From Candidatus Kaiserbacteria bacterium (GTDB lineage Bacteria; Patescibacteriota; Minisyncoccia; Phycocordibacterales; UBA2100): a stretch of 64,000 nucleotides of DNA. This document shows, piece by piece, positions 70 through 63,192 of the stretch. The translations under genes and the position numbers were made by a program. The stretch covers positions 368-64,367 of the forward strand of contig VGJQ01000002.1 of NCBI GenBank assembly GCA_016867375.1, given 5' to 3'. The notes below the pieces were generated by a model. The model had not been told where the DNA came from, searched no databases, and saw nothing but the letters and a program-made list of their open reading frames with translations. Position 1 is the stretch's first letter, and every line of letters starts with the position of its first letter.

Positions 70-215
70 AAGGGCTCGTCCACACATAACGTACCCGTTA
101 TGTGTGGACTATACTTATGGTCCCGTTCATTTAGTGTTGAACTCATTTATGAACGGGACCAAAATGTCAAAAGTCAGACTTTCTACAAATGTAGAAAGTC
201 TGACTTTTGACATTC
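70..215. repeat. Composite palindromic repeat upstream of the HUH transposase gene: module A (70-160; contains inverted repeat GTCCACACATAACG..CGTTATGTGTGGAC) followed by a 48-bp nested palindrome TGTCAAAAGTCAGACTTTCTACA/TGTAGAAAGTCTGACTTTTGACA (165-212)
   Basis: Inverted repeats read directly in the sequence. Module A recurs at about 10 other sites in the window (13614, 19160 rc, 28999, 32110 rc, 33120 rc, 46944, 50335 rc, 59456, 63154). Confidence 0.8.
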
Positions 216-234: not shown

Positions 235-936
235 ATGCGGATAGAACCATACGGGATCGACTCATTTGTGCACGTAATGAAGCGTGGCGCGCGCGGACTA
301 CCCATCACGAGTGATATCGCGGATTGTTGGCGTTTTACCCGGCTCCTCTATCATATGAATGATGAATACAAATGTGACCCGTGGGAGAGAGATACTTTTG
401 GTATGGGGATTTTTGACAGGCCGAGCTCTTGGCCTGAACGTAGTCCTTTGGTAAAAGTACTCGCGTGGGTCCTGATGCCCAATCATTTCCATTTGGTATT
501 GAAAGAGATTCGTGAAGGAGGCGTATCAAAGTACATGCAGAAGATAGGTGGCAGTATGACGACTCACCATAATGCAAAACATGAAGAGAAGGGGAGTATA
601 TTTCAGGGTGCATTCAAGTCGCGGACGCTGGATGATGACTTCTACCTGAAACATGTCGCATCATACGTGATGGTGAAAAATGTTTTTGAGCTATATCCAG
701 GTGGATATGATCGTGCTGTTGCTGAGTTTGATAAGGCTTGGAAGTGGGCGGTAGAAGAATATCCGTTTTCGAGCCTTGCGGATTATGCGACCATGCGCAA
801 CTCGCCGATCCTAGAGAAAGACATCTTCGGTGAGTTGTTCCCGTCACCCGCTACGTTTAAAGCGCACTCAAAAGAAATGATAATGAACAGGACGGTGGAG
901 TCTCATACGGGGCTCTACAAAGCTGCGCTTGAGTAA
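235..936 (+). CDS. IS200/IS605-family HUH tyrosine transposase, REP-associated (RAYT/TnpA_REP-like)
   Basis: HUH motif LMPNHFHLVL, a downstream segment typical of Y1 transposases (IFQGAFKSRTLDDDFYLKHVASYVMVKN) and family-typical size of 233 aa. The gene is bracketed on both sides by palindromic repeats, as for REP/RAYT loci. Confidence 0.7.
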   Translation: MRIEPYGIDSFVHVMKRGARGLPITSDIADCWRFTRLLYHMNDEYKCDPWERDTFGMGIFDRPSSWPERSPLVKVLAWVLMPNHFHLVLKEIREGGVSKYMQKIGGSMTTHHNAKHEEKGSIFQGAFKSRTLDDDFYLKHVASYVMVKNVFELYPGGYDRAVAEFDKAWKWAVEEYPFSSLADYATMRNSPILEKDIFGELFPSPATFKAHSKEMIMNRTVESHTGLYKAALE

Positions 937-942: not shown

Positions 943-1035
943 ATGTCAAAAGTCTGACTTTCTACATGGGACTCTGTCAAAAGTCAGACTTTTGACATTT
1001 TTCAGTGTCCTAGAGGCGTCGCCTCTAGGATTTTG
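943..1035. repeat. Downstream flank of the RAYT gene: half-palindrome ATGTCAAAAGTCTGACTTTCTACAT (943-967), perfect palindrome TGTCAAAAGTCAGACTTTTGACA (975-997), and hairpin CCTAGAGGCG-TC-GCCTCTAGG + TTTTGG (1009-1035), a likely terminator
   Basis: Palindromes read directly; same GTCAGAC-core hairpin family as 165-212. Confidence 0.75.
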
Positions 1036-5852: not shown

Positions 5853-7211
5853 ATGGATTACAAAAAAGTATATTTTATAGGTATCGGTGGGATCGGCATG
5901 TCTGGACTCGCGCAACTTCTGGTGCAGCAGGGCAAACAGGTGAGCGGCTCCGATAGGGAAGAATCGCCGACGACGGAGATGCTCGCGCGCAAAGGTATCA
6001 GTGTGACGATCGGGCAAACTGCGGACAATGTCGCACTGGATACAGACCTCGTGATCTACAGCGATGCGGTGTATGCCGACAATCCAGAGCGCATGCGCGC
6101 GGCGGACATGGGCATACCGCAATATTCATATTTCGAGGCACTCGGTGAAGTGTCGCGTAGTATGCGCACGATCGCCGTGGCGGGCACGCACGGCAAGACG
6201 ACCACCACTGGCATGCTCGCCAAGATGTTGTCGGATGCGGCGGTCGAGCCGACCGCAATCATCGGATCGATCGTACGCGATTTCGAATCCAACTACCTGC
6301 CCGGCAGACCCGATCTCTTTGTGGTAGAAGCATGCGAGTATAGGGATCACATCCTCAAACTCTCGCCCGAAATACTCGTCATCACCAATGTCGAGCTCGA
6401 TCACACCGACTATTTTCCCGACCTCGCCGCGCTCCAAGAGACGTTTCGCATTGCGGCAGAAAAAGTCCCCTCCTTCGCTCAAGCTTCGGAGGGCGGGCCT
6501 GCACAGGGCGGTGTCATTGTGACGAACCCAAGTGATCCCAATATCGCCCCCATTCTTCAAAATGTTACGGCAAAGGTGATCGATTACACTCAGGTACACA
6601 CACCGACGCTGCAGCTCATCGGCGAGTTTAATCGCGAGAATGCACAGGCGGCCAAGGCTGCGGCCTTGGCCGCATTTCCCGACCTCGACGAGCGCACGAT
6701 CGACGAATCACTCTCGTCATATCGAGGCGCATGGCGCCGATTTGAATACCGCGGCAAGACGCCGTCAGGTGCACTCGTCTACGACGACTACGCACATCAT
6801 CCGACCGCGATCATGAAGACGATCGAAGCAGCGCGCGCACGTTTTCCCGGCAAAAAGATAGTGGTCGCATTTCACCCTCACCTCTACAGCCGCACGAAGT
6901 CACTCATACATGAGTTTGCGGCAGCGCTTGCGACAGCCGATTTCGCTATCGTCGCACCCATCTACGCCGCGCGTGAAGCACTTGATCCGACTGTATCCAA
7001 CCATATTCTCGCAAAGCTCATCAATAGTACGATGCGGCAGGGGTACAAGTCAGACTTGTGCCTTGGCACAAGTCTGACTTGTGCCCCTGCAATCGCGATC
7101 GACTCATTCGACGAGATCCGCGATCGACTCCTGCAGGAAGGCGAAGACGCACTCATTATCACTATGGGCGCAGGGGATATTTATAAAGTAGCGCAGCAAA
7201 TCGCTGATTAG
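5853..7211 (+). CDS. murC: UDP-N-acetylmuramate--L-alanine ligase MurC
   Basis: N-terminus MDYKKVYFIGIGGIGMSGLAQLL and P-loop GTHGKTTTTGM. Carries an in-frame palindromic insert at 7046-7083. The track ORF starts at 5721 and runs through the tRNA-like element; ATG 5853 is preferred. Confidence 0.85.
   Translation: MDYKKVYFIGIGGIGMSGLAQLLVQQGKQVSGSDREESPTTEMLARKGISVTIGQTADNVALDTDLVIYSDAVYADNPERMRAADMGIPQYSYFEALGEVSRSMRTIAVAGTHGKTTTTGMLAKMLSDAAVEPTAIIGSIVRDFESNYLPGRPDLFVVEACEYRDHILKLSPEILVITNVELDHTDYFPDLAALQETFRIAAEKVPSFAQASEGGPAQGGVIVTNPSDPNIAPILQNVTAKVIDYTQVHTPTLQLIGEFNRENAQAAKAAALAAFPDLDERTIDESLSSYRGAWRRFEYRGKTPSGALVYDDYAHHPTAIMKTIEAARARFPGKKIVVAFHPHLYSRTKSLIHEFAAALATADFAIVAPIYAAREALDPTVSNHILAKLINSTMRQGYKSDLCLGTSLTCAPAIAIDSFDEIRDRLLQEGEDALIITMGAGDIYKVAQQIAD
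7046..7083. repeat. Nested perfect palindrome ACAAGTCAGACTTGTGCC-TT-GGCACAAGTCTGACTTGT (18-bp arms) embedded in frame in murC
   Basis: Read directly; same GTCAGAC hairpin family as the RAYT flanks. Encodes KSDLCLGTSLTC near the MurC C-terminus. Confidence 0.8.
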
Positions 7212-13532: not shown

Positions 13533-13613
13533 CATGCATGGACAGCCTATAACCCCTTGGGTACGAGGGTCTTTCAGATCGTACCTCTCAGACATACTCA
13601 AGTGTCCACAGCT

Positions 13614-32055: not shown

Positions 32056-32336
32056 AGGTCCCGTTCATAAGGCTCACTTCTGCATACATGACTTTTGGTC
32101 ATGTATGCAAGTGTGCACTTATAATTTCAACACAAAATGAACGGGCCCATAAGTGTAGTCCACAAATAACGAGTACGTTAATTTGTGGACGAGTCCTTAA
32201 AGTACTTGTTTATGATTCGCGGCCGCGAATCATAAACAAGTACTTTTATCCGGACAATATATTTTGGGATGTTCTAAGGCTTAACCTTAGAACAGATATG
32301 CTATCTTTGCGCTATAGCGTGGAGATAGCATACAGA
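32056..32336. repeat. Composite repeat: module C + module B (32056-32200), 46-bp perfect palindrome AAGTACTTGTTTATGATTCGCGG|CCGCGAATCATAAACAAGTACTT (32199-32246), palindrome GTTCTAAGG-CTTAA-CCTTAGAAC (32270-32292), module D (32297-32336)
   Basis: Read directly; right boundary of the two-gene island. Confidence 0.8.
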
Positions 32337-33116: not shown

Positions 33117-33194
33117 ATAATTTCAACACCAAATGAACGGGTCCATAAGTGTAGTCCACAAATAACGAGTACGTTATTTGTGGACGAGCCCTTA
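33099..33194. repeat. Module B copy overlapping the last ~6 codons and stop of the HIT-family gene
   Basis: GGTCCCGTTCAT..GTTATTTGTGGACGAGCCCTTA. Confidence 0.75.
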
Positions 33195-33219
33195 CACAAA
33201 CCACATAAGGAACGTACAG

Positions 33220-33500: not shown

Positions 33501-33794
33501 TTGTGATAGGATAGTAGTGCTTTGTCAATACATCAAGAGCAATGTGTTGTTTTTGATGTGTGAGCACAAACATACAAGTCTGACTTGTTCAAAACAAAGT
33601 TATACACAAGCGTGTATCGATGCGGCTTTTTATGCGATAAAATTGACATGGTTTTTATTTTTTATTAAACGGCAATCGTTTACCTGTCGAGGCGCGAGAC
33701 GTCTCTCGAAGTATGGCCCATATACGGAAAAGCAACCGCTTTTCCCGGCAAAACCATGCTCTCGAGAACAAGTCATGCATAATTACTGAACATC

Positions 33795-44162: not shown

Positions 44163-45437
44163 ATGTTCGAGACTTTCATTCGCAAACTCAAGCTTGTCTT
44201 TGAAGACAAGACGATCCGGACGCGTATCCTCTTCGTGCTCGGGGCGCTTATTGTATTTCGCTTGCTCGCCGCGATCCCTGTGCCGGGTATCAATGCCGCC
44301 GAACTCCAGGCATTTCTCACCAACAATCAATTCCTCGGACTTCTCAACGTCTTCTCGGGAGGCGGTTTTTCCAATCTTTCGATCGTCATGCTCGGCGTCG
44401 GTCCATATATCACTGCGTCTATCGTGATGCAGCTTTTGACCGTGCTCGTACCCAAGCTCAAGGAGATGTATCAGGAAGAGGGGGATGCTGGCCGAGCTCG
44501 TTTTATGCAGTATTCTCGCTACCTCACGCTTCCGCTCGCGCTCATCCAGGGTTTTGGTTTCATCTTGCTTCTTCAGCAGAATGGCATTTTGCCGGAACTC
44601 ACGATCCTCGGCTTTGTCACCAATATGATGGTCACTGCTGCCGGCTCGATCCTTCTTATGTGGATCGGAGAGCTCATCTCAGAATACGGCGTCGGCAATG
44701 GTGTATCGCTCATCATCTTTGCCGGCATCGTCGCTGCGATCCCGACGAGCGCCGCGCAGTTCTTCTACTCGTTTGACCCTGCACAGCTTCCCGCATACGT
44801 CGGATTCTTCGCGGTCGGTATCGCCATCATGGCGGGTGTCGTCTTCATCACCGAGGCCGAGCGCCCGATCCCTGTCACGTATGCGCGCCGCGTGCGCGGT
44901 ATGAAGGTCATGGGCGGCGTATCCACGTATCTCCCGCTTCGCGTGAATCAGGCGGGAGTCATGCCCATCATCTTTGCGCTCTCTATCCTGCTTTTCCCTC
45001 AGATGATCGCGACCTTCCTCTCCAAGAGCTCGATCCTCTGGCTTGCCGAAGCTGCGCGCGCCGTCGTCGTCGCACTCAACAATCAGTGGCTCTATGGCGC
45101 GCTCTATTTCGTCCTCGTATTTATCTTCACGTATTTCTACACAGCGATCACCTTTGAGCCGCATCAGCTTGCGAAGAATCTGCAGAAGAACGGCGCTTTC
45201 ATCCCCGGCGTGCGCCCAGGCCAGAATACTTCAGAATATCTCGCCAACATCATCACGCGCATCACGCTCGTCGGCGCCCTCTTCCTCGGGTTTCTCGCCG
45301 TCTTGCCGATCATCCTTCAGGGCATTACGGGTATCACTGCGATCACAATCGGCGGCACCGCACTCCTCATCGTCGTCTCCGTAGTCCTCGACCTCGTCAA
45401 AAAGGTCGACGCGCAGACCTCGATTCGGGAGTATTGA
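44163..45437 (+). CDS. secY: Preprotein translocase subunit SecY
   Basis: Ten TM helices, conserved LNVFSGGGFSNLSIVMLGVGPYITASI plug and TM2 region. Confidence 0.9.
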   Translation: MFETFIRKLKLVFEDKTIRTRILFVLGALIVFRLLAAIPVPGINAAELQAFLTNNQFLGLLNVFSGGGFSNLSIVMLGVGPYITASIVMQLLTVLVPKLKEMYQEEGDAGRARFMQYSRYLTLPLALIQGFGFILLLQQNGILPELTILGFVTNMMVTAAGSILLMWIGELISEYGVGNGVSLIIFAGIVAAIPTSAAQFFYSFDPAQLPAYVGFFAVGIAIMAGVVFITEAERPIPVTYARRVRGMKVMGGVSTYLPLRVNQAGVMPIIFALSILLFPQMIATFLSKSSILWLAEAARAVVVALNNQWLYGALYFVLVFIFTYFYTAITFEPHQLAKNLQKNGAFIPGVRPGQNTSEYLANIITRITLVGALFLGFLAVLPIILQGITGITAITIGGTALLIVVSVVLDLVKKVDAQTSIREY

Positions 45438-45506
45438 CAAGAATACATAGTATGTGATATACTTTATTTTAGAGTACAAACTGCAGTACTCGGATTGGAG
45501 GGTGCG

Positions 45507-45905
45507 ATGGCTACTCGTGAGAAGGTACTTGAATTCCTATCAGCTATTCAGGCTGAGCAAAATGCGCTGAAGATCATCCGATCGATCTCGGACCAAAACG
45601 TCGAGTTGTCTGACTTGGACGAGAAAGGTCTCGAGGTGGTTGGGCGGGCTTATACGGCGGCTATTGAGAAAATGTTGCCGAATCTTCTGGATATCACCGC
45701 TGGCGTATACGCGAAGCATTATACCGACGACGAGATCAGCCAACTCACGACCTTCTATACCTCGCCTCTTGCGCAAAGACAAACCTCTCTAGCGAAAGAG
45801 ATCAACGAGGCCGTCGGCGAATATCTTGAGGGGGCAAAGGAAGATATTGTGAAGATTATTAAAGGAGCCATCGACGACGTCGATGGCATAAAGAAGTCCG
45901 ACTGA
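45507..45905 (+). CDS. Hypothetical cytoplasmic protein (132 aa)
   Basis: GGAGGG SD 8 nt before ATG 45507 (track start 45495 is TTG). Confidence 0.5.
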   Translation: MATREKVLEFLSAIQAEQNALKIIRSISDQNVELSDLDEKGLEVVGRAYTAAIEKMLPNLLDITAGVYAKHYTDDEISQLTTFYTSPLAQRQTSLAKEINEAVGEYLEGAKEDIVKIIKGAIDDVDGIKKSD

Positions 45906-45934
45906 TGTTGTCCCGCGCCACCGTGTATACGGCC

Positions 45935-45969
45935 GGCGCGGGATTCTTTTTATTTTTTTTGGTATAGTG
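45935..45969 (+). promoter_or_regulatory. First copy of a 33-bp direct repeat GCGGGATTCTTTTTATTTTTTTGGTATAGT containing an extended -10 (TGgTATAGT); second copy at 47630-47664
   Basis: Direct repeats bracket the hicBA/phd-relE island; -10-like hexamer TATAGT at 45964-45969. Confidence 0.5.
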
Positions 45970-46041
45970 TCGCAGGTCGGGCTTATGACACTAGCGAGGA
46001 ATTCATTTTGTATATGGGTAGATTCGGGGTATACTACAAAT

Positions 46042-46326
46042 ATGAAAAAGCGCGCCAAGAAGATCAAGACGGAGGTACAGACCGATTACGGATTGTTCGC
46101 GGTTGTGCTTGAGAGCGAACCCGATATGGGTGGGTACATGATAACGGTGCCGAAAGTACCACCTGTAATTACGTGTGGAAGAAACATAACACATGCCAAA
46201 GAAATGGCTCGCGAGGCGATCGAATTAACGCTTGAGACGCAAACACTCCATGCTGCAGAGCAGGCAGGTCGGATCAAGTTCACAAAGAAAGCGTCATTGC
46301 CGGCTCATGGTGTTGCTTTTGCATGA
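46042..46326 (+). CDS. hicB: HicB-family antitoxin
   Basis: GGYMITVPKVPPVITCGRNITHAKEMAREAIELTLE matches the HicB N-terminal RNase-H-like domain. TATACT sits 6 nt upstream of the ATG, so the mRNA is possibly leaderless. Track ORF starts at 45967 (GTG). Confidence 0.65.
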   Translation: MKKRAKKIKTEVQTDYGLFAVVLESEPDMGGYMITVPKVPPVITCGRNITHAKEMAREAIELTLETQTLHAAEQAGRIKFTKKASLPAHGVAFA

Positions 46327-46544
46327 GCACATTGCCGATACTTTCGGCGCGAGAAACGATGCGCCGACTCATACGGCTCGGATTTCGCGTTGAAGGATAT
46401 CGGGGAAGTCATGCGATATTGGTGCACGATCGAACAGGACGGGAAACCACCGTACCGATGCATCCAGGCGACCTTGGCCGGAAGTTGCTCTCCGGCATCA
46501 TCAAACAATCCGGCGTGAATCTTCAGGATTTTCTGAGTGCGTAA
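46323..46544 (+). CDS. hicA: HicA-family toxin (mRNA interferase)
   Basis: RLIRLGFRVEGYRGSHAILVHDRTGRETTVPMHPGDLGRKLLSGIIKQSGV has the HicA dsRBD-like fold signature (GSH..vp.H). 4-nt overlap with hicB. Confidence 0.7.
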   Translation: MSTLPILSARETMRRLIRLGFRVEGYRGSHAILVHDRTGRETTVPMHPGDLGRKLLSGIIKQSGVNLQDFLSA

Positions 46545-46670
46545 GATAGAGAGTGGTCGATATAATCACGATTGGCGGCACGGCGCTTCCCATCGCATCT
46601 GCGTAGTCCTCGACCTCGTCAAAAAGATCGACGCGCAGACGAGTATAAGGGTTCATTTTGAATACAGTAA

Positions 46671-46913: not shown

Positions 46914-46943
46914 CAGTGTCGACAAAATGCTCGGTCGCATCCC

Positions 46944-47035
46944 GCATAAGGGCTCGTCCACACATAATGTACCCATTATTTGTGGACTACACTTATGGGC
47001 CCGTTCATTTGGTGTTGAACTTCGGGACCTAAGGA
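46944..47035. repeat. Module A repeat inserted between the phd-like antitoxin and the truncated relE
   Basis: AAGGGCTCGTCCACACATAATGTACCCATTATTTGTGGACTACACTTATGGGCCCGTTCATTTGGTGTTGAAC. Confidence 0.8.
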
Positions 47036-49988: not shown

Positions 49989-50204
49989 CTATCGCCAGTC
50001 TTGTAATGATTTTAAGACCTTGCCCTTGCCTTGGTCAAATTGGCGGCGTTGTGCGTATAAGCTGCGCGCCAGTTGTGCTCGTTTATACTCTCGAATGAGC
50101 GTACGGATAAACTCGCTCGTCGAGGCAAATCCTTCGCGCCTTACCTCGCGCTTGAGCTCATCGGCCATTTCCTTTGGTAACGATATGTTTACGATTGTTC
50201 GCAT
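49989..50204 (-). CDS. Ribbon-helix-helix (CopG/RelB-like) antitoxin
   Basis: MRTIVNISLPKEMADELKREVRREGFASTSEFIRTLIREY; 16 nt upstream of the toxin on the same strand. Confidence 0.6.
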   Translation of the reverse strand: MRTIVNISLPKEMADELKREVRREGFASTSEFIRTLIREYKRAQLARSLYAQRRQFDQGKGKVLKSLQDWR

Positions 50205-50250
50205 GTAATACATTGTATTACACCCTGTTTGAAATGCAAGTGAAGTTAAT

Positions 50251-50412
50251 TTAGGTCCCATTCATAAATTAAGGCTCACTTTTGCTATGCAAGTGTGCAC
50301 TTATGGGCCGATGTATATTCTTATACATCGGCCCGAAGTTCAACACAAAATGAACGGGCCCATACGTGTAGTCCACAAATAATGTACCCGTTATGTGTGG
50401 ACGAGCCCTTAA
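50251..50412. repeat. Composite repeat: module C deletion variant (50262-50310), perfect palindrome GGGCCGATGTATA-TTCT-TATACATCGGCCC (50302-50331), module B (50335-50412)
   Basis: Read directly. Confidence 0.8.
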
Positions 50413-50439
50413 TCATTTACTGAATGCTATACTTTCAGT

Positions 50440-53205
50440 ATGGAAACGCGCGGGATGGAGCGGACATCTTTTACCTCGTCGGAAAAATTTAAATCTCCCC
50501 AAGAGGAGCTTGCCTATCTGCGCGAGCGTGTGCGCGAAAGAGAGCGAGAGCTTGATATCTCGAGCAATCGCCACGAGAGCGATCGTATCGCGCGTCGCGA
50601 GGTCAAAGCGTATGGCGAAGTCCCGGCATCACGCGTCTTGCATGAGCATTTCGTCATACCCGAACACGAAGCAGTCCGCGAGATGATCAAGCTCGAGCCT
50701 GAGACACACGACAAACAGATCGATGGTCTGCTCGACATGGTCGCGCGCAGCGGCATCCGCAATGCGCTTTCGGTCGCATCGCGCATGAAGAATCCCCACC
50801 TCGAAGATGATCTCCATCGCGCGATCGTGCAGTATGTGGCAGAAGGTTTGCCCGACAAAGGTATGGGCGCTCCCGAAAAGGTCCGCAAAGGCCTCACTAT
50901 GGTGCTTTTCGAAGTGCATCCCCAGGCGCACGGCGAAGGGGATCAGAGCAAACAGCCGCACAAGCTCGAGCAACTGCTCTCGTCATCCGAACAGCTCTAT
51001 GCCGGCATCATCTCGCTCGTCGGTGAGGGAGAATCATTCTCGCTCGAGATTGCCGTAGGGCAGGGTACGGAAGAGGCGTCGCTGTATCTGGCTGTACCGC
51101 GCTCAAAGCGGGACCTCGCGGAGCGTCTGATCGCGTCGGTCTTTCCCAATGCGCGTATCACCGAAAATCGCGGAGATTACAACATCTTCAATTATGACGG
51201 CGAACACGCGGCTGCCTATGGAAAGCTCTCCCAGCACCCGGCACTGCCCTTGAAGACGTATGAATCGTTCGAGCACGATCCCCTCAATGTGCTCCTCGTA
51301 GCCTTTGCCCGGATCAAGAAACATGGCGAAGGGGCGGCGTTGCAGATCGTACTCTCCAGCGAAGGCGATCGCTACAACAAACACTACCGCAAAATGCTCC
51401 GCGAGCTCGAGAAGGGAAAGTCTTTGGGTGAGGCGCTGCGTGTGCCCGAGACTATTTTTGGTGAAGTGGTGCATGATCTGGCGAGCTCGATGTTTACGAA
51501 CGATGCGGACAAGGAGAAGGAGAAAGAGCGCGAAATGCGCCGTGTGACCGATTCGGTATCGGCGGAATCTTTGGGTCGCAAGATCAAGACCCGTATCGTG
51601 CCCGCGACGATCCGTATCGTCACCTCCGCACCGACCGCCGAGCGCGCGCATGAGATGCTTACGAATCTCGAGAGTGCATTCGGACAGTTTGACGATGCCA
51701 AGGGCAATACAATGACCTTCAAAAGCGTATCCTCGTGGTATATGCGCGATTTTCTGCGCGCATTTACCTTCCGCGAATTTGACGACTCTGTCATGATGCC
51801 GCTCTCGCTTTCCGAGATCACCTCTGTCTTTCATTTCACCGCCGAGCAGGTGACGACCTCGCGCGAGCTCAAAAAATCCTATGCCAAACAGACTCCCGCA
51901 CCGGTCGAAATGCCTGAAGACGGTATCGTCATCGGTGTCAATCGCTATGGTGGGCAGGAGACGCCAGTGCGTTTTGGTGTCGCCGACCGCTTGCGCCATG
52001 CGTACGTGATCGGTCAGACAGGTACCGGTAAGACGGGTCTCCTCAAAAATATGATCATTCAGGATATGCGCAATGGTGAAGGTGTGGCCTACATCGATCC
52101 GCATGGCAACGATATCGAAGAGCTCCTCGCTGCCGTGCCGCCCGAACGGTACGACGACGTGATCTACTTTGATCCGGCATACACAGCGCGTCCGATGGGA
52201 CTCAACATGCTCGAATACGATATCAGTCGTCCCGAAATGAAGACGTTTGTCATCGATGAAGTGTACGGCATTTTCCGTAAGCTCTATTCGGATGTGCCCG
52301 AGGCGTTTGGTCCGATGTTTGAGCAGTACTACCGCAATGCTGTACAGCTCGTGCTCGAAGATCCCGATACGGGCAACACCTTCGTCGAAGTCGCGCGTAT
52401 ATTTGCCGACTCATATTTCCGCGACATGAAGCTCGCACACTGCAAGAATCCGATCGTCGTGCAGTTTTGGCGCAAGATCGCCGAGCAGGCACAAGGAGAT
52501 CCGTCGCTTGAAAACATCGCTCCGTACATTGTCGGCAAGTTCGATGTGTTCCTGACCAATGACATCATGCGACCGATTGTTGCGCAGGAGCATTCTGCCT
52601 TCGACTTCCGTGAGATTATGGACGATCGCAAGATCTTCCTCGCCAATCTCTCCAAAGGCCGCTTGGGCGATCGTAACACCAGCCTGCTAGGCCTTGTGCT
52701 TGTGTCCAAGTTCCTCCAAGCGGCGTTTTCACGCGTGGATACGCGCGGGGATTTGCCGCCGTTTTACTTCTATATTGACGAATTCCAAAACTTCGCGACA
52801 CCCTCGATCTCGACGATCCTTTCTGAAGCGCGCAAATACAAGCTCTCACTGACGATCGCTCACCAATTCATCGCACAGCTCGACGAAGGCATCCGCGACG
52901 CCGTGATCGGCAACGTCGGTACGAAGGCAGCTTTTCGTGTCGGTACCACCGATGCCGAATTCCTCGCCAAACAATTCGAGCCGGCCTTTGCTGCCTCAGA
53001 CCTCGAAAATCTTCCCAATCGTAATGCCGTGCTCGCTCTCTTGGTCAATGGCAGACCCGCGCGCCCCTTCACAGTCGAGACGATCGAGCTACCAAAAGTC
53101 GACTTCACCAAGGTCGATGCACTTAAGAAGCTTTCATACGATCGATTTGGTAGTGATAGGGGAGAAGTGGAAGCCGACATCCAGCGCAAATTTGACCAAC
53201 TCTAG
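50440..53205 (+). CDS. TraD/TrwB/VirD4-family P-loop ATPase paralog (921 aa) with a ~500-aa N-terminal domain of unknown function
   Basis: Core HAYVIGQTGTGKTGLLKNMIIQDMRNGEGVAYIDPHGN.., FYFYIDEFQNF and LTIAHQFIAQLDEG are collinear with 8977-11166. The N-terminal half has no recognisable motif. Confidence 0.75.
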   Translation: METRGMERTSFTSSEKFKSPQEELAYLRERVRERERELDISSNRHESDRIARREVKAYGEVPASRVLHEHFVIPEHEAVREMIKLEPETHDKQIDGLLDMVARSGIRNALSVASRMKNPHLEDDLHRAIVQYVAEGLPDKGMGAPEKVRKGLTMVLFEVHPQAHGEGDQSKQPHKLEQLLSSSEQLYAGIISLVGEGESFSLEIAVGQGTEEASLYLAVPRSKRDLAERLIASVFPNARITENRGDYNIFNYDGEHAAAYGKLSQHPALPLKTYESFEHDPLNVLLVAFARIKKHGEGAALQIVLSSEGDRYNKHYRKMLRELEKGKSLGEALRVPETIFGEVVHDLASSMFTNDADKEKEKEREMRRVTDSVSAESLGRKIKTRIVPATIRIVTSAPTAERAHEMLTNLESAFGQFDDAKGNTMTFKSVSSWYMRDFLRAFTFREFDDSVMMPLSLSEITSVFHFTAEQVTTSRELKKSYAKQTPAPVEMPEDGIVIGVNRYGGQETPVRFGVADRLRHAYVIGQTGTGKTGLLKNMIIQDMRNGEGVAYIDPHGNDIEELLAAVPPERYDDVIYFDPAYTARPMGLNMLEYDISRPEMKTFVIDEVYGIFRKLYSDVPEAFGPMFEQYYRNAVQLVLEDPDTGNTFVEVARIFADSYFRDMKLAHCKNPIVVQFWRKIAEQAQGDPSLENIAPYIVGKFDVFLTNDIMRPIVAQEHSAFDFREIMDDRKIFLANLSKGRLGDRNTSLLGLVLVSKFLQAAFSRVDTRGDLPPFYFYIDEFQNFATPSISTILSEARKYKLSLTIAHQFIAQLDEGIRDAVIGNVGTKAAFRVGTTDAEFLAKQFEPAFAASDLENLPNRNAVLALLVNGRPARPFTVETIELPKVDFTKVDALKKLSYDRFGSDRGEVEADIQRKFDQL

Positions 53206-53207
53206 CG

Positions 53208-53231
53208 CGTATACAGGTCTGACCTGTGTAC
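53208..53231. repeat. Palindrome GTATACAGGTC-T-GACCTGTGTAC (GTC-N-GAC hairpin family); a second copy at 53722-53746 brackets the small membrane-protein cassette
   Basis: Read directly. Confidence 0.75.
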
Positions 53232-53271
53232 GTGCGGGAATGGGTGCAAATATGGGGTGCAAATATGGGGA

Positions 53272-53328
53272 TTGACATGATGTACTTTTGATTGTTACAA
53301 TGACATCAGGTTGCCGATCTGGTTGGCA
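53272..53328 (+). promoter_or_regulatory. Near-consensus sigma70 promoter (-35 TTGACA 53272-77, 18-nt spacer, -10 TACAAT 53296-53301) plus operator-like inverted repeat TTGCC-N9-GGCAA (53310-53328); preceded by tandem GGTGCAAATATGG x2 (53247-53272)
   Basis: Hexamers and spacing read directly; GAAGGAGT SD before ATG 53350. Confidence 0.55.
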
Positions 53329-53349
53329 ATATAATGAAGGAGTAGGTCC

Positions 53350-53670
53350 ATGTTGGCACTGTTTGGGCTTTTTATCATCGTCGGCGCACTCTTTGCTTAT
53401 ATCGCAGGGCGTACGCGCTGTCTGTCTCGCGGCCCGAGTATACTCTGCGAAGCTTTTGCATGGGTTGCGACAGGGACAGGGTCACTTGGCTATACATTAC
53501 GCTTCGGCGTTAAGAATGGGCCAATGCCTAACCCCGGCTCAACCGACTACTTTCTCCATACGGTCCATATAGGACTTATCATCTGGCTTACGATGATAGT
53601 CATTGGCGTAGTGGTCCTCATAAGCAAAGAATGTGGACGGAAGGGAAAGCCGCTTATGTTCAAGTTCTGA
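53350..53670 (+). CDS. Small integral membrane protein (106 aa, 3 TM helices)
   Basis: Strong SD (AAGGAG), own promoter, hydrophobic sequence. Confidence 0.6.
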   Translation: MLALFGLFIIVGALFAYIAGRTRCLSRGPSILCEAFAWVATGTGSLGYTLRFGVKNGPMPNPGSTDYFLHTVHIGLIIWLTMIVIGVVVLISKECGRKGKPLMFKF

Positions 53671-53721
53671 ATCGAAGACGAAAGGGTGTCTCACAAGGCG
53701 CCCTTTTTCTATTTCACACAG

Positions 53722-53746
53722 ATACACAGGTCTGACCTGTGTACTT
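53722..53746. repeat. Palindrome GATACACAGGTC-T-GACCTGTGTAC (second copy)
   Basis: Read directly. Confidence 0.75.
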
Positions 53747-53792
53747 GGGGGCGCGGATGCTTTCGGCCAGCATTTGAGCCACGTATTGGCGA

Positions 53793-53851
53793 TTGACTTT
53801 ATTTTTAGAGGTGCTATAATTATACTATGAATCAGTCAATGTGACTGATTC
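53793..53851 (+). promoter_or_regulatory. Near-consensus promoter (-35 TTGACT 53793-98, 16-nt spacer, extended -10 TGcTATAAT 53812-20) followed by a perfect 10-bp inverted repeat GAATCAGTCA-ATG-TGACTGATTC (53829-53851, operator-like)
   Basis: Read directly. Confidence 0.55.
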
Positions 53852-53875
53852 TAAATGGTGAGGGAGAAACCACAA

Positions 53876-54013
53876 TGAATCGCATCGTCCCCATTTTGTT
53901 CTTTTTTGCCATGCTCGTGTTTGCCGCCGTCACGACGACGGCCGACGGCCTCGACGGCCCGAGCGATACTCTGCCGAGTTATCCGTGGGGAAACTTCGTC
54001 CCCCCCGGGTGAG
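53876..54013 (+). CDS. Small secreted peptide precursor (45 aa; signal peptide then a ~20-aa Pro/Gly/Asp-rich mature region)
   Basis: MNRIVPILFFFAMLVFAAVTTTA|DGLDGPSDTLPSYPWGNFVPPG. GAGGGAG SD, own promoter/operator, terminator immediately downstream. Below the ORF-track size cutoff. Confidence 0.4.
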
Positions 54014-54022
54014 GCAAACCAA

Positions 54023-54052
54023 AAAGCGCGTCCCCGGGACGCGTTTTGCTTT
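54023..54052 (+). terminator. Rho-independent terminator (CGCGTCC-CCGG-GGACGCG, then TTTTGCTTTT)
   Basis: Read directly. Confidence 0.6.
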
Positions 54053-54108
54053 TGTATGAGTCCGTTATCCGTTGTATTATGGCTGAAAATTGCTATAGTA
54101 TCGCGCAT

Positions 54109-54633
54109 ATGGCACATGTAAAAAACGAGCGTACATTTATTATTGTGAAGCCTGACGGGGTACAGCGCGGCCTTGTCGGCGAGATTATTACGCGATTCGA
54201 GCGCGTGGGCCTCAAGATCGTCGGCACAAAGATGATCGATCCATCCGTCGAGCATTATCACCATCATTACGAAACCATCGGCAAGATGGTATCGCGTCGC
54301 GGCCAAAAGGTGTTTGACGTGACCCTTGAGATGATGAAGGTTGGTCCCGTGATCGCTTTTGTACTCGAAGGTATTGAGGCGGTGTCTTTGGTGCGCAAGA
54401 TGGTGGGTGCCACGGAGCCCAAATCGGCGCTCCCTGGGACGATTCGCGGTGACTATGCGCATATGAGTTTTGCGCATGCTGACGCTCAAAACATGGGTGC
54501 AAACAACCTCATTCATGCCTCGGGAGATCCTACAGAGGCGGCTGCAGAGATCGCGCACTGGTTTGCCGAGACAGAACTCTTTGACTACGAGACGACGCAC
54601 GACAAATTTACCCAGAAAACAAAAGGGAAATAG
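54109..54633 (+). CDS. ndk: Nucleoside diphosphate kinase with a ~35-aa C-terminal extension
   Basis: ERTFIIVKPDGVQRGLVGEIITRFE and the active-site His region NLIHASGD. Alternative starts at 54079 and 54046. Confidence 0.85.
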   Translation: MAHVKNERTFIIVKPDGVQRGLVGEIITRFERVGLKIVGTKMIDPSVEHYHHHYETIGKMVSRRGQKVFDVTLEMMKVGPVIAFVLEGIEAVSLVRKMVGATEPKSALPGTIRGDYAHMSFAHADAQNMGANNLIHASGDPTEAAAEIAHWFAETELFDYETTHDKFTQKTKGK

Positions 54634-55231: not shown

Positions 55232-56650
55232 ATGAAAGATGCGTCGCACAAAGCCTCGATCACATTTTATGGTGGCGCGGGTGTCGTGACGGGAGCCAAT
55301 TTCCTCTTGGATGCGGGAGATGTAAAGATCCTCATCGATTGCGGTGCGGTCGAACGTGAAATAGCTCATCATGCGATCGATTCCGGGTCGGCACGAATGA
55401 TGATCCCTGTCTGCGACTCAATCAACACACAGCCGTTTGCATACGATCCAGCGGGTATCGACGCGCTCATCGTCACGCATGCACATGCCGATCATATTGG
55501 GCGCATCCCAAAGCTCGTCCATGATGGCTTCACGGGGCCGATCTACTCGACGCCCGCTACGCGCGATCTCGCTGCACTCATGTTTGATGACGCAATTCGT
55601 GTAATGGAGGGCGAAAATGAGCGTCATGGCTGTGACATGGTGTACCAGAAAGAGGATGCAGCGGCGGCACTCGCGCTCTGGCAGCCACACGAATACCACG
55701 AGCCGTTTGAGATAAGATCGGCCACGGTCGAATTTTTCGATGCGGGGCACATCCTCGGTGCGGCGATGGTCAGATGCACACGCAATGGCCGCAGTATTCT
55801 CTTCACTGGTGACTTGGGTAATTCTCCCGAGCCGCTACTCAATGACACCGAGATTCCTGATGGTATCAATTATGTCCTCATGGAGAGTGTCTACGGCGAT
55901 CGTGTGCATGAAGGGCGAGACCAGAGGGCAGAGATATTGCGTGGGGTGATCGAGGATGTGCGTCGGCGCGGCGGTGCACTCCTCATTCCTTCGTTTTCGA
56001 TTGAGCGTACACAAATCCTGCTCTACGAGATTGAGCGGATGCTCGAAGATGGGTCCATGGCGCCCATCCCCGTGTATCTCGATGCACCGCTTGCTATCCG
56101 GGTCACGGAGGTATTCCGGCGCTACATGCGCCTTTTGAAGCCGGAAGTACAAGCGCGCTTCGAGAGTGGCAATGACCCGTTCCAATTCCCCGGACTCACG
56201 CTGACAGAAGATATCTCCGAATCGCGCACCATTCACACCGCTCCAAATCCAAAAGTGATCATCGCTGGCGCGGGCATGTCTGCAGGCGGTCGTATCCGCT
56301 CGCACGAAACGCACTATTTGTCGGATGCAAATGCGACCGTGCTCTTCGTCGGGTATCAGGCGCCGGGATCTCTTGGACGGCGTATCCAAGATGGCAACAA
56401 ACACGTGACGATTGACGGCAAAAAGGTCCGCGTGCGCGCACGCATCGCCGCGCTCACCGGATACTCTGGTCATCGTGACCGTGATGGACTCATGGATTTC
56501 ATTGAGCAGCTCGGACCATCGGTCGAACGTGTCTTCGTGGCGATGGGGGAGCCACGCTCGGAGATGTTTCTCTCACAGCGCATTCGCGATTTTCTCGGTA
56601 TCGACGCACATGCGCCGGAGCAAGGTCAGAAGATCGAAATAGATTGGTAA
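55232..56650 (+). CDS. MBL-fold beta-CASP family RNA-metabolising hydrolase (CPSF73/RNase-J-like)
   Basis: HAHADH zinc motif, beta-CASP motifs including TGYSGHRD, 472 aa. Confidence 0.75.
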   Translation: MKDASHKASITFYGGAGVVTGANFLLDAGDVKILIDCGAVEREIAHHAIDSGSARMMIPVCDSINTQPFAYDPAGIDALIVTHAHADHIGRIPKLVHDGFTGPIYSTPATRDLAALMFDDAIRVMEGENERHGCDMVYQKEDAAAALALWQPHEYHEPFEIRSATVEFFDAGHILGAAMVRCTRNGRSILFTGDLGNSPEPLLNDTEIPDGINYVLMESVYGDRVHEGRDQRAEILRGVIEDVRRRGGALLIPSFSIERTQILLYEIERMLEDGSMAPIPVYLDAPLAIRVTEVFRRYMRLLKPEVQARFESGNDPFQFPGLTLTEDISESRTIHTAPNPKVIIAGAGMSAGGRIRSHETHYLSDANATVLFVGYQAPGSLGRRIQDGNKHVTIDGKKVRVRARIAALTGYSGHRDRDGLMDFIEQLGPSVERVFVAMGEPRSEMFLSQRIRDFLGIDAHAPEQGQKIEIDW

Positions 56651-58114: not shown

Positions 58115-58233
58115 ACAAAAACCGCGACTCTTCGAGAGTCGCGGTTTCTCATTTGGCATACCTATAGCAGATATCCGAGCAGATAGTGGAAAATCCATAC
58201 CCGTAACCCGCACCATATCGCAAGACATATTCA

Positions 58234-58270
58234 TATGCTATTGTGTTGCTATAGCGTAGTCATAGCATAT
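58234..58270. repeat. Module D palindrome variant ATATGCTATTGTGTTGC-TATAGC-GTAGTCATAGCATAT
   Basis: Paired with 58947-58984 around the PaaX-like gene. Confidence 0.7.
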
Positions 58271-58911: not shown

Positions 58912-58946
58912 TTTCCCATACCCATCCACAACTTCGCAAAATTTCG

Positions 58947-58984
58947 ATATGCTATTGTTGCGCTATAGCATAGAGATAGCATAT
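58947..58984. repeat. Module D palindrome ATATGCTATTGTTGCGC-TATAGC-ATAGAGATAGCATAT
   Basis: Read directly. Confidence 0.7.
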
Positions 58985-62737: not shown

Positions 62738-63154
62738 ATGAGGAAGCTTATGCTCGGATTGGTCGCTTGTCTCGCTCTTGCGGGTGTGGCGGCCGCTCAA
62801 AGTCAGCTAACAGAAGGAATGACGGAATTGCGCGCCAGCATAAAACACCTGGCGCTCGCTCGGACGACAAACGATCGGGGAGAATTGACGGACCGCATGT
62901 GGAGGATGGTTATCCATCGTGGTGTCGAGATACAGTTTCAAGAACTCGGCTATCAGGGATGTGCATTCGTGCATATGGAAAAGACCGGATATGTCCCTGT
63001 GTGCGTGAACTATCGGGAAGATATATACGCGCGGCTGGTGTCGGGCGAGGTGGAAAAGATCGATGAAGCGATCACCCTCATCGAGATCAGGGCGATGCAG
63101 ATGGGACTGATCCCGTATGAGGAGTCCGACGTAAACGAACAAGAGGAACTGTAA
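62738..63154 (+). CDS. Small secreted hypothetical protein (138 aa)
   Basis: Signal peptide MRKLMLGLVACLALAGVAAAQ; the stop abuts a partial module A copy (63154-63195). Confidence 0.5.
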   Translation: MRKLMLGLVACLALAGVAAAQSQLTEGMTELRASIKHLALARTTNDRGELTDRMWRMVIHRGVEIQFQELGYQGCAFVHMEKTGYVPVCVNYREDIYARLVSGEVEKIDEAITLIEIRAMQMGLIPYEESDVNEQEEL

Positions 63155-63192
63155 GGGCTCGTCCGCACATAACGTACCCTATGTATGATAGA

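What the first reader, a model, noticed from the sequence alone, without database searches (positions are those of the whole stretch)
53205..54060. Two palindrome-bracketed mini-cassettes with near-consensus promoters and operator-like inverted repeats: small membrane protein plus a 45-aa secreted peptide
Cassette 1: GTC-N-GAC palindromes at 53208 and 53722 flank a TTGACA-18-TACAAT promoter, a TTGCC-N9-GGCAA inverted repeat, a strong SD and a 106-aa 3-TM protein. Cassette 2: TTGACT-16-TGcTATAAT promoter, perfect GAATCAGTCA-ATG-TGACTGATTC operator-like site, SD, a 45-aa ORF with a classic signal peptide and a ~20-aa Pro/Gly/Asp-rich mature part, then a terminator. Strong dedicated promoters with operators on tiny genes suggest a regulated secreted peptide (signalling or bacteriocin-like) with a membrane partner (immunity or receptor), located right after the TraD-like paralog.
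Basis: partly seen in the sequence, partly recalled or inferred. Interest (0 to 1): 0.6.

Follow-up and report, generated by a model that had tools for sequence, protein, structure and literature searches.

The report
Two orphan small genes between REPs
In a Kaiserbacteria (CPR) genome, an insertion of about 870 bp between two conserved genes carries two genome-specific small genes, each with its own strong promoter, leader hairpin and terminator; the "bracketing" palindromes are copies of a mobile REP repeat, not regulator sites, so this looks like an ordinary accessory-gene hot spot and not a demonstrated peptide-signalling or bacteriocin system.

Summary
The interpretation changes.

**Palindromes.** The GTC-N-GAC palindromes (53209-53231, 53723-53743) belong to a repeat family with core RGTCWGACY: 9 copies in 64 kb against 1.3 expected. 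Other copies flank a RAYT-type Y1 transposase (235-936) as doublets. Homologous transposases in three other CPR genomes are also flanked by REP doublets. One of them uses CACAAGTCAGACTTGTG, which differs from the finding's palindrome mainly by one compensated base pair. They are REP elements, not cassette brackets or operators.

**Operator-like repeats.** These start exactly 9 nt after the -10 hexamer. They differ in sequence, one needs three G·U pairs, and they are unique in the window. They fit 5'-terminal mRNA stem-loops best.

**The two ORFs (106 aa, 45 aa).** Both have good promoters, Shine-Dalgarno (SD) sites, terminators and host-like codon usage. Neither has a homologue in 5.8 billion proteins or in 80 syntenic relatives.

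**Context.** The block sits in a hypervariable TraD-like→ndk spacer. That spacer is under 300 bp in 34 of 67 relatives and holds unrelated cargo elsewhere. No receptor, export or processing genes are nearby.

Function of the two products remains inferred. Interest is modest.

The parts
53209..53231 (.). REP1: 23-nt palindrome GTATACAGGTC-T-GACCTGTGTAC, 4 nt after the stop of the TraD-like gene. With its flanks it forms a 14-bp hairpin of -23 kcal/mol. It is the only hairpin between that gene and promoter 1.
   Evidence: z = -5.98; no other terminator-like site there
53242..53267 (+). Tandem duplication of a 13-mer (GGGTGCAAATATG x2) between REP1 and the -35 hexamer.
   Evidence: D3
53272..53301 (+). 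Promoter 1: TTGACA-18-TACAAT, 11/12, with extended -10 TG.
53310..53330 (+). 5' leader stem-loop 1 (GUUGCCGAU-CUG-GUUGGCAAU): 9 bp including 3 G·U pairs, starting 9 nt after the -10 hexamer.
53350..53670 (+). p106: orphan 106-aa protein with 2-3 hydrophobic helices and a basic C-terminal tail. SD AAGGAG at 53337-53342.
53680..53707 (+). Intrinsic terminator of the p106 unit (12-bp stem plus T run).
   Evidence: z = -5.11
53723..53743 (.). REP2: perfect palindrome TACACAGGTC-T-GACCTGTGTA, 15 nt after terminator 1. The repeat shared with REP1 extends to 38 nt at 82% identity.
   Evidence: (D1, I13)
53793..53820 (+). Promoter 2: TTGACT-16-TATAAT, 11/12, with extended -10 TG.
53829..53851 (+). 5' leader stem-loop 2 (GAAUCAGUCA-AUG-UGACUGAUUC): 10 bp, starting 9 nt after the -10 hexamer.
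   Evidence: (z = -3.36)
53875..54012 (+). p45: orphan 45-aa ORF with a Sec-type signal-peptide-like N-terminus (MNR / 16 hydrophobic residues / TTTA|DG) and a 22-aa acidic C-terminal part rich in Pro and Gly. SD GAGGGAG at 53860-53866.
54023..54047 (.). Bidirectional intrinsic terminator closing the p45 unit, 10 nt after its stop codon.
   Evidence: z = -3.73
50440..53205 (+). Left border of the hot spot: the conserved TraD-like ATPase gene (DUF8128 / TraG-D_C), leaderless.
54109..54633 (+). Right border of the hot spot: ndk, leaderless (TATAGT ends 8 nt before the ATG). The promoter region resembles that of the closest relative from about 54079 onward.
235..936 (+). RAYT-type Y1 (HUH) transposase. 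This is the likely mobilising enzyme family for the palindromes. Only one copy is present in the window.
163..214 (.). REP doublet (REPIN) upstream of the transposase: ATGTCAAAAGTCAGACTTTCTACA / TGTAGAAAGTCTGACTTTTGACAT.
   Evidence: D11
945..997 (.). REP doublet downstream of the transposase.
7041..7088 (.). REP doublet of the ACAAGTCWGACTTGT type, inserted in frame (48 bp) in murC.
33574..33588 (.). REP singlet ACAAGTCTGACTTGT between the HIT gene and the gene for a 2318-aa surface protein.
45434..45491 (+). Third near-consensus promoter of the window (TTGACA-18-TATACT), followed by a 6-bp hairpin that again starts 9 nt after the -10 hexamer. It drives an SD-led DUF2059 gene in a separate small island.

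Best explanation
The region 53206 to about 54078 is a genome-specific insertion in a hypervariable spacer between the conserved TraD-like (DUF8128) ATPase gene and ndk of a Candidatus Kaiserbacteria genome.

It holds two independent monocistronic units. Each has a near-consensus extended -10 sigma-70 promoter, a stem-loop at the very 5' end of the transcript, a strong SD, a small orphan ORF and an intrinsic terminator. The products are most likely a small 2-3-helix membrane protein (p106) and a Sec-exported or membrane-anchored 45-aa peptide (p45).

The two palindromes are not part of the genes' control logic. They are singlet copies of a REP (repetitive extragenic palindrome) family, dispersed by a RAYT-type Y1 transposase like the one at 235-936. 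They landed, as REPs typically do, just 3' of the preceding transcription units. There they can serve at most as 3' hairpins for the TraD-like and p106 mRNAs.

The 'operator-like' repeats act at the RNA level as 5'-terminal stem-loops that protect the mRNA from 5'-end-dependent decay. Together with the strong promoter and SD, this points to high constitutive expression.

**Shown:** the anatomy, the repeat-family membership, orphan status and hot-spot variability.
**Inferred:** transcription start sites, export of p45, the stabilising role of the hairpins, and any function of the proteins.
For: **REP identity.**
- The core RGTCWGACY occurs 9 times in 64 kb against 1.27 expected; 0 of 100 shuffles reach 9.
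- Four copies flank, as doublets, an ORF matching Pfam Y1_Tnp (1.8e-6, above the cut-off). Its best NCBIfam hit is 'REP-associated tyrosine transposase'.
- The HUH motif NHFHL and Y144...K148-N149 are invariant in 11 CPR homologues.
- Homologues in three other genomes are each flanked on both sides by their own REP doublets. In L085 the REP is CACAAGTCAGACTTGTG. That is the motif at window 7045, 7068 and 33574, and it differs from the finding's CACAGGTCTGACCTGTG by a compensated A·T to G·C pair and the loop base.
- The exact 19-mer also occurs in an unrelated context, at the 3' end of a SET-domain gene.

**Hot spot.**
- The order map, TraD-like, ndk, p101, RNase J-like, SLOG is conserved in 80 Kaiserbacteria loci.
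- The TraD-like to ndk spacer is under 300 bp in 34 of 67 loci, including 53 bp in the closest relative. It is 0.5-3.7 kb with unrelated cargo (secreted proteins, toxin-antitoxin pairs) in the other 33.

**Genes.**
- Promoters score 11/12. Only 3 such sites occur in the window against 0.37 expected, and only 5 in 1.06 Mb of relatives.
- SD spacing is 7-8 nt and the terminators have z = -5.1 and -3.7.
- The codon-usage log-odds score is 0.415 per codon for p45, reached by 2% of spurious ORFs of that size. It is 0.132 for p106, reached by 8%. Both lie within the range of real gene segments.

**Hairpins.**
- All three strongest promoters are followed by a stem that starts exactly 9 nt after the -10 hexamer. 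Stems are 9, 10 and 6 bp. The background frequencies of such a stem at a given position are 0.006, 0.004 and 0.03.
- Stem 1 has three G·U pairs.
- Neither repeat recurs in the window.
Against: - No transcription or protein data exist, and transcription start sites are inferred from the -10 position.
- Both ORFs are orphans: only self-hits in 5.77e9 and 1.84e9 protein sets. Coding therefore rests on signals and codon usage alone, and p106's score is only moderately convincing.
- The GG/CC variant of the REP has just two copies in the window and one elsewhere. These copies are singlets, not doublets. The transposase in the window is flanked by a different variant (AAAAGTCWGACTTT).
- The rest of the genome could not be searched. 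The metagenome collection scanned does not seem to contain the source contig.
- Hairpin 1 is not much more stable than shuffled sequence (z = -1.35).
- A DNA-binding role for the perfect 10-bp repeat of unit 2 cannot be excluded.
Confidence: 0.6

Rival explanations
1. One reading: a regulated secreted peptide (signal or bacteriocin-like) and a membrane partner (immunity or receptor), controlled through operators.
For: p45 has a plausible Sec signal peptide and a short mature part. p106 is a membrane protein encoded next to it. Both have dedicated strong promoters. The same hot spot in relatives often carries secreted proteins.
Against: - The two genes are separate transcription units, and no co-occurrence data are possible because neither has a homologue.
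- No RRNPP/TPR receptor, histidine kinase, ABC/C39 exporter or modification gene lies nearby. The neighbours are ribosomal proteins, secY, gmk, adk, map, ndk, an RNase J-like gene, SLOG and HAD.
- The mature peptide is acidic and Cys-free and has no double-glycine leader.
- The 'operators' differ from each other, are unique, and are better explained as RNA stems.
Confidence: 0.1
2. The GTC-N-GAC palindromes are binding sites of a dimeric transcription factor that co-regulates a regulon of surface and secreted proteins, including the 2318-aa protein.
For: The sites have dyad symmetry. Three of them lie 130-214 nt upstream of genes for membrane or secreted proteins: 53220 before p106, 53733 before p45 and 33581 before the 2318-aa protein.
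Against: - Other copies lie inside murC, on both sides of the transposase as inverted doublets, and at the 3' end of a SET-domain gene in L083.
- Homologous transposases are flanked by such palindromes in other genomes.
- The arms co-vary (AAGTC/GACTT against AGGTC/GACCT), which preserves a hairpin and not a fixed half-site.
- Distances to the -35 hexamer differ (52 and 60 nt), and no good promoter follows the site at 33581.
Confidence: 0.08
3. One or both ORFs are not translated genes. The units would then be non-coding RNAs, decaying remnants, or chance ORFs in an inserted spacer.
For: No homologue exists anywhere and there is no family hit. p106's codon score is in the lower range of real genes (16th percentile). 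There is no population variation from which to measure selection, because the second contig is identical.
Against: - Each ORF has an optimally spaced strong SD in a genome where only 4 of 50 long ORFs have one.
- The ORF fills the space between leader and terminator.
- Codon usage favours the annotated frame over the five others.
- No Rfam family matches.
Confidence: 0.17
4. p45 is the toxin of a type I toxin-antitoxin module: a small hydrophobic membrane peptide controlled by an antisense RNA that shares the bidirectional terminator.
For: The size and single hydrophobic helix fit. The 5' leader is structured. The terminator is bidirectional, and there is a weak minus-strand promoter-like site at 54122-54095.
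Against: - That promoter scores only 9/12, at the chance level for the region (3 sites found against 2.6 expected).
- The predicted antisense RNA has no better complementarity to the p45 leader than shuffled sequence (-21.4 against a mean of -23.9 kcal/mol).
- The SD sits in a loop and is not sequestered.
- The C-terminal half is acidic and Pro-rich, unlike known type I toxins (own knowledge).
Confidence: 0.04
5. REP1, the p106 unit and REP2 form a mobilisable unit: cargo bracketed by two same-orientation REPs and moved in trans by the Y1 transposase, analogous to non-autonomous IS200/IS605 derivatives.
For: Two REP copies sharing a 38-nt repeat at 82% identity, in the same orientation, bracket exactly one promoter-gene-terminator unit. 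A Y1 transposase family with REP-flanked genes is present.
Against: The unit exists once. p106 occurs nowhere else in about 15 billion proteins. The p45 unit has no REP on its right side. REPs next to terminators and gene ends are the default pattern and need no cargo model.
Confidence: 0.04

Closest known systems
REP/REPIN-RAYT systems (E. coli, Pseudomonas; Nunvar 2010, Bertels & Rainey 2011, Ton-Hoang 2012; reviewed in PMC5581495 and PMC3337134)
   Same: Short hairpin-forming palindromes are over-represented in extragenic DNA and occur as singlets and inverted doublets. A conserved HUH/Y1 transposase gene, present once in the 64-kb window, is flanked by them. The REP sequence is lineage-specific while the transposase is conserved.
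   Different: The host is a CPR (Patescibacteria) lineage, for which the library searched holds no description of such a system. The transposase is about 233 aa and scores below the NCBIfam RAYT cut-off (38.9 against 80 bits). The copies at the finding are singlets of a G·C-compensated variant. One doublet sits in frame inside murC.
Phage 'morons' and autonomous accessory cassettes (promoter-gene-terminator units inserted between conserved genes; own knowledge, Hendrix and colleagues)
   Same: Each small gene is a self-contained transcription unit with its own promoter and terminator. It is inserted between two genes that are adjacent in relatives, and its expression signals are atypical for the host (SD-led in a mostly leaderless genome).
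   Different: The units are not in a prophage. There is no match in phage or plasmid collections or in PHROGs.
5'-terminal mRNA stabiliser stem-loops (E. coli ompA leader, B. subtilis aprE and ermC leaders; own knowledge)
   Same: A stable hairpin lies within a few nucleotides of the predicted 5' end, followed by an accessible SD. Position is conserved while sequence is not.
   Different: The transcription start and half-life have not been measured. The RNase set of this organism is only inferred; an RNase J-like beta-CASP gene lies at 55232-56650.
RRNPP-type signalling pre-peptides (Phr, PapR, NprX; 40-60 aa, Sec signal peptide, active C-terminal oligopeptide; own knowledge)
   Same: p45 has the size and layout of such a pre-peptide: an N-terminal signal peptide and a short polar C-terminal part.
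   Different: No adjacent TPR receptor gene and no oligopeptide permease are in the window, and there is no sequence similarity.
Integron gene cassettes with attC sites
   Same: Small genes alternate with imperfect palindromes.
   Different: These cassettes carry their own promoters. The palindromes are 21-23 nt, whereas attC sites are over 55 nt with an R' box (own knowledge). The palindromes belong to a dispersed REP family. No integrase was looked for or seen next to the array.

Membership tests
REP / REPIN elements | Short (about 20-40 nt) imperfect palindrome able to form a stable hairpin | tested here: met
   The palindromes are 21-23 nt. Folding energies are -23.0 and -14.0 kcal/mol with z = -5.98 and -2.32.
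REP / REPIN elements | Over-represented, dispersed copies in extragenic space of the same genome | tested here: inconclusive
   The family core has 9 copies in 64 kb against 1.27 expected, and 7 of 9 are intergenic. The exact GG/CC variant has only 2 copies in the window plus 1 in another contig. The rest of the genome is not available.
REP / REPIN elements | A RAYT gene in the genome that is itself flanked by REPs of the family | tested here: met
   The Y1 transposase at 235-936 is flanked by doublets at 163-214 and 945-997 that share the core. Homologues in L084, L085 and L086 are flanked likewise. The L085 REP is nearly identical to the finding's palindrome.
REP / REPIN elements | Arrangement as inverted doublets (REPINs) | tested here: not met
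   The two copies at the finding are singlets 513 bp apart in the same orientation. Doublets exist elsewhere in the family. Singlet REPs are common in known systems (PMC3337134).
RAYT (REP-associated tyrosine transposase), for ORF 235-936 | HUH motif and catalytic Tyr of the Y1 transposase fold | tested here: met
   Pfam Y1_Tnp matches at 1.8e-6, above the cut-off. NHFHL 83-87 and Y144/K148/N149 are invariant in 11 homologues.
RAYT (REP-associated tyrosine transposase), for ORF 235-936 | Scores as an equivalog of curated RAYTs | tested here: not met
   NCBIfam REP_Tyr_transpos is the best hit but scores 38.9 bits against a cut-off of 80. No PDB relative is found by sequence. One JGI homologue is named RayT.
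RAYT (REP-associated tyrosine transposase), for ORF 235-936 | Single copy, vertically inherited, not an IS | tested here: inconclusive
   There is one copy in the window. The gene is syntenic with gapdh in three genomes, but L085 has two copies. The whole genome is not available.
Sec-dependent or class II bacteriocin locus | Adjacent immunity gene co-transcribed with the peptide gene, a cationic mature peptide, and often a dedicated exporter | tested here: not met
   The genes are separate units with a terminator between them. The mature part has net charge -3. No exporter is in the neighbourhood.
RRNPP peptide signalling cassette | Pre-peptide gene adjacent to a TPR-domain receptor/regulator gene | tested here: not met
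   The neighbours are the TraD-like ATPase, p106 (no family hit) and ndk.
Operator-controlled promoter | The same inverted repeat recurs at co-regulated promoters, or a cognate regulator is encoded nearby | tested here: not met
   Both repeats are unique in the window at up to 3 mismatches. The only nearby DNA-binding protein is an RHH protein at 49989-50261, and its binding to these repeats was not tested.
Type I toxin-antitoxin | Antisense RNA with complementarity to the toxin mRNA | tested here: not met
   The antisense promoter is at chance level and the duplex energy is no better than shuffles.

The most novel reading that the evidence does not exclude
The REP copies are not bystanders. 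In this reading, CPR REP-RAYT systems capture and shuttle small promoter-gene-terminator units (REP1-p106-REP2), seeding hot spots with new, highly expressed surface or secreted micro-proteins. p45 and p106 would then be a lineage-specific secreted peptide and membrane protein pair used in the episymbiont's interaction with its host.
Probability: 0.05. Interest if true: 0.65.

Novelty: new member of a known kind. Interest (0 to 1): 0.3.

Why it matters
For annotation, palindromes that look like operators or cassette boundaries in CPR genomes can be REP elements. A conserved RAYT-like transposase family, with its flanking REP doublets, appears to be widespread in Patescibacteria: 670 homologues were found, and 4 of 4 contexts inspected have flanking REPs.

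For biology, the locus shows how an otherwise streamlined and mostly leaderless Kaiserbacteria genome acquires orphan small genes. These genes carry a distinct expression architecture for high output: a canonical -35/-10 promoter, a 5' stem-loop and an SD. They sit at a recurrent hot spot whose cargo in relatives is dominated by secreted proteins. If p45 and p106 are expressed, they are candidates for lineage-specific surface or host-interaction factors. Nothing here yet shows that.

Tried and rejected
- **Homology for p106 and p45.** I ran the word-indexed search of 5.77e9 proteins, an exhaustive HMMER search of 1.84e9 representatives for p106, and tblastn against 80 syntenic relatives. I also ran Pfam, NCBIfam, PHROGs and PADLOC. 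Only self-hits were found.
- **Remnant test.** Proteins encoded in the same spacer of relatives show no similarity to the window's spacer. p45 is therefore not a visible remnant of the 130-aa secreted family found there.
- **Mobile-element origin.** There is no blastn match in phage or plasmid collections.
- **Population variation.** The only other contig carrying the genes is 100% identical over 8.6 kb, so no dN/dS estimate is possible.
- **Metagenome scan.** The scan for the 19-mer palindrome returned one unrelated locus and not the source contig. It could not give a genome-wide copy number.
- **Shared promoter module.** Aligning the two upstream regions shows similarity essentially limited to the REP and the -35 hexamer. 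The upstream region of the 2318-aa gene has no good promoter at a comparable distance.
- **Rfam.** Nothing was found at the gathering threshold or at E<=1 apart from a chance miRNA-hairpin hit on REP1.
- **Type I toxin-antitoxin test.** Negative.
- **Structure.** The single-sequence AlphaFold2 model of p106 has pLDDT 60.6. It is usable only for helix count, so no fold search was attempted.
- **Integron reading.** Rejected on cassette and palindrome anatomy.

Full report
**What is there.**
- Four nt after the stop codon of a 921-aa TraD-like gene (50440-53205) lies the palindrome GTATACAGGTC-T-GACCTGTGTAC (53209-53231).
- A second, perfect copy TACACAGGTC-T-GACCTGTGTA lies at 53723-53743. The two copies share a 38-nt repeat at 82% identity.
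- Each palindrome is followed by a promoter scoring 11/12 with an extended -10 TG: TTGACA-18-TACAAT at 53272-53301 and TTGACT-16-TATAAT at 53793-53820.
- After each promoter come an inverted repeat, a strong SD 7-8 nt before an ATG, a small ORF (106 aa at 53350-53670; 45 aa at 53875-54012) and an intrinsic terminator (53680-53707; 54023-54047).
- The terminators and the second inverted repeat fold far better than shuffled sequence, with z = -5.1, -3.7 and -3.4.

**Are the promoters special?** Yes.
- Only three sites in the whole 64-kb window, on both strands, reach 11/12, against 0.37 in shuffles. Two of them are these.
- About 1.06 Mb of DNA from related genomes holds only five.
- The host genome is mostly leaderless. 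In 23 of 50 long ORFs a TAnnnT box lies 4-10 nt (mostly exactly 6) before the start codon, and only 4 of 50 have a strong SD.
- In relatives, genes at the same position are also leaderless.
- The two units therefore use an expression architecture that is unusual for this organism: a canonical -35/-10 promoter, a leader of about 41-47 nt and an SD.

**Organism and context.**
- The TraD-like protein (Pfam TraG-D_C; DUF8128 in precomputed hits) has relatives of 65-84% identity in 80 Candidatus Kaiserbacteria and Paceibacterota assemblies.
- The order map, TraD-like, ndk, p101, RNase J-like, SLOG is conserved.
- The TraD-like to ndk spacer is hypervariable. It is under 300 bp in 34 of 67 loci, including 53 bp in the closest relative. 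It is 0.5-3.7 kb in 33 loci, with unrelated cargo: a family of secreted proteins of about 130 aa, larger signal-peptide proteins and toxin-antitoxin pairs.
- The window's block of about 870 bp is one more such insertion.
- Similarity to the closest relative resumes near 54079, just upstream of the leaderless ndk promoter.
- The wider neighbourhood is housekeeping: ribosomal proteins, secY, gmk, adk and map. It holds no peptide exporter, receptor, kinase or modification enzyme.

**The palindromes are REP elements.**
- The core RGTCWGACY occurs 9 times in the window against 1.27 expected; none of 100 shuffles reach 9.
- Four copies form inverted doublets on both sides of ORF 235-936.
- That ORF matches Pfam Y1_Tnp above its cut-off. 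Its best NCBIfam match is 'REP-associated tyrosine transposase', though below that model's cut-off.
- It has the HUH motif NHFHL and a Tyr-x3-Lys-Asn motif, both invariant among 11 CPR homologues.
- The family has at least 670 members at E<=1e-5, mostly Patescibacteria, and one is named RayT by JGI.
- I fetched three homologue contexts. In each, the gene is flanked on both sides by REP doublets with a lineage-specific sequence.
- In L086 further copies are dispersed in the 20-kb locus.
- In L085 the flanking REP is CACAAGTCAGACTTGTG. The same motif occurs in the window at 7045, 7068 and 33574. The finding's CACAGGTCTGACCTGTG differs from it by one A·T to G·C pair changed on both arms, plus the loop base.
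- Such arm covariation preserves a hairpin, as expected for REPs recognised as single-stranded DNA (PMC3337134; PMC5581495).
- A metagenome scan for the exact 19-mer found one more copy, at the 3' end of a SET-domain gene beside a bidirectional terminator. That is a context unrelated to promoters.
- Seven of the nine window copies are intergenic. The two at the finding lie 15 nt (palindrome centre) after the TraD-like stop and 63 nt after the p106 stop. This is the usual REP position, 3' of a transcription unit.
- REP1 is the only hairpin between the TraD-like gene and promoter 1. It could serve as that mRNA's 3' stem-loop; this is inference.

**The 'operators'.**
- The two inverted repeats have unrelated sequences and occur once each in the window at up to 3 mismatches.
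- Repeat 1 is a 9-bp helix only as RNA, because three of its pairs are G·U. As DNA only TTGCC/GGCAA plus one A·T pair remain.
- Both stems begin exactly 9 nt after the -10 hexamer. So does the hairpin after the third strong promoter, at 45434.
- The background frequencies of a stem of that length starting at a given position are 0.006, 0.004 and 0.03.
- With a start site about 7 nt after the -10 hexamer, which is inferred, the stems sit at about +3. That is the geometry of 5'-terminal stabiliser stem-loops known from the ompA, aprE and ermC leaders (own knowledge).
- The SD of unit 2 lies in an open loop.
- I therefore favour an RNA-level role. A DNA-level role for the perfect repeat 2 is not excluded.

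**Are the ORFs genes?**
- Evidence for: the signal architecture, and codon usage resembling the window's long genes. p45 scores 0.415 per codon and 2% of spurious ORFs of similar size reach that. p106 scores 0.132 and 8% reach that. The annotated frame is the best of six for both.
- Evidence against: neither has any homologue in 5.77e9 clustered proteins, in 1.84e9 representatives (p106 only), in 80 syntenic relatives, or in Pfam, NCBIfam, PHROGs or PADLOC.
- The only other contig carrying them is identical.
- p106 has two strong hydrophobic segments and one weak one, and a basic C-terminal tail. A low-confidence model shows three helices.
- p45 has a textbook signal-peptide layout with a likely cleavage after TTA. 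That would leave a 22-aa acidic peptide rich in Pro and Gly and free of Cys. No predictor was available to score this.

**Function.**
- The best-supported statement is anatomical: two orphan, probably highly expressed genes for envelope or secreted micro-proteins in an accessory hot spot.
- A functional peptide-partner pair is possible but rests on adjacency only.
- Membership tests for a bacteriocin locus, an RRNPP cassette, a type I toxin-antitoxin module and an integron all fail on features that could be tested.

**Verdict.**
- The most useful correction is that the palindromes are REP elements of a REP-RAYT system in a CPR bacterium.
- The library searched holds no description of REP-RAYT systems in Patescibacteria. 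Automated annotations do already name some of these proteins RayT, so this is a new member of a known kind.

Noticed in passing
window 7041-7088 (inside murC, 5721-7211): A 48-bp REP doublet, GGGGTACAAGTCAGACTTGTGCC-TT-GGCACAAGTCTGACTTGTGCCCC, lies in frame inside the C-terminal domain of MurC. Alignment to a solved MurC (9ir5) shows an insertion of about 16 residues exactly there. An essential gene appears to tolerate a REPIN insertion.
   Followed up: partly
window 235-936 with 163-214 and 945-997; L084 9923-10756; L085 9953-10726; L086 9931-10745: A conserved family of leaderless Y1/HUH transposases of about 233 aa is widespread in Patescibacteria, with at least 670 homologues. Each of the four contexts inspected is flanked by lineage-specific REP doublets. 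The gene is often next to gapdh. This looks like a REPIN-RAYT system in CPR bacteria.
   Followed up: partly
window 59-146, 8854-8941, 13603-13690, 28989-29076, 46937-47024, 63152-63179 (+); 19164-19241, 32126-32203, 33122-33199, 50339-50416 (-): A dispersed structured element of about 75-88 nt (TAAGGGCTCGTCCACAnATAACG...CGTTATnTGTGGACTACACTTATGGGCCCGTTCATTTnGTGTTGAAC) has about 10 copies in 64 kb, mostly 79-99% identical to their reference copy, with two divergent copies (66%) and one truncated. One copy lies just upstream of the TraD-like gene. It has no Rfam match and its nature is unknown; it could be a MITE or a structured RNA.
   Followed up: partly
window 13702-13730, 19122-19150, 27397-27425, 32081-32109; 13756-13793, 26483-26520, 32295-32332, 58232-58269, 58946-58983; 8564-8590, 32270-32294: There are several further families of repeated intergenic palindromes, for example TGCATACATGAC-N5-GTCATGTATGCA and AATATGCTATCTCT...AGAGATAGCATA. 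For a small CPR genome this window is unusually rich in palindromic repeats.
   Followed up: no
window 45376-46640: The 3' end of secY is duplicated (45376-45418 against 46598-46640, 95% identity). The duplicates bracket an island of about 1.2 kb. It carries a DUF2059 gene under the window's third near-consensus promoter, with a 5' hairpin and SD, and a HicB/HicA-like pair named here from sequence appearance only.
   Followed up: partly
whole window: Gene expression signals are predominantly leaderless. A TAnnnT box ends exactly 6 nt before the ATG for the transposase, both TraD-like paralogues, the RNase J-like gene, SLOG and others. Strong SD sites are rare, at 4 of 50 long ORFs.
   Followed up: partly
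window 54109-54633 and loci L003-L082: ndk exists as two divergent allele types among Kaiserbacteria: 70-76% identity to the window's copy in a few genomes and 35-45% in most, including the closest relative. This suggests replacement at the edge of the hot spot.
   Followed up: no
L051 9498 and 10228 (minus strand): This is another tandem pair of small ORFs (72 and 66 aa, not hydrophobic). Each lies behind an 11/12 promoter with a leader of about 42 nt and an SD. This is the same mini-cassette architecture in a relative, at a different locus.
   Followed up: no
window 50440-53205 and 8899-11166: The conserved TraD-like DUF8128 ATPase hits the PADLOC model mad8 (7.6e-17) and has a paralogue in the window, with 70-72% DNA identity over two stretches. 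It is a core syntenic gene in Kaiserbacteria, so a defence role is doubtful.
   Followed up: no
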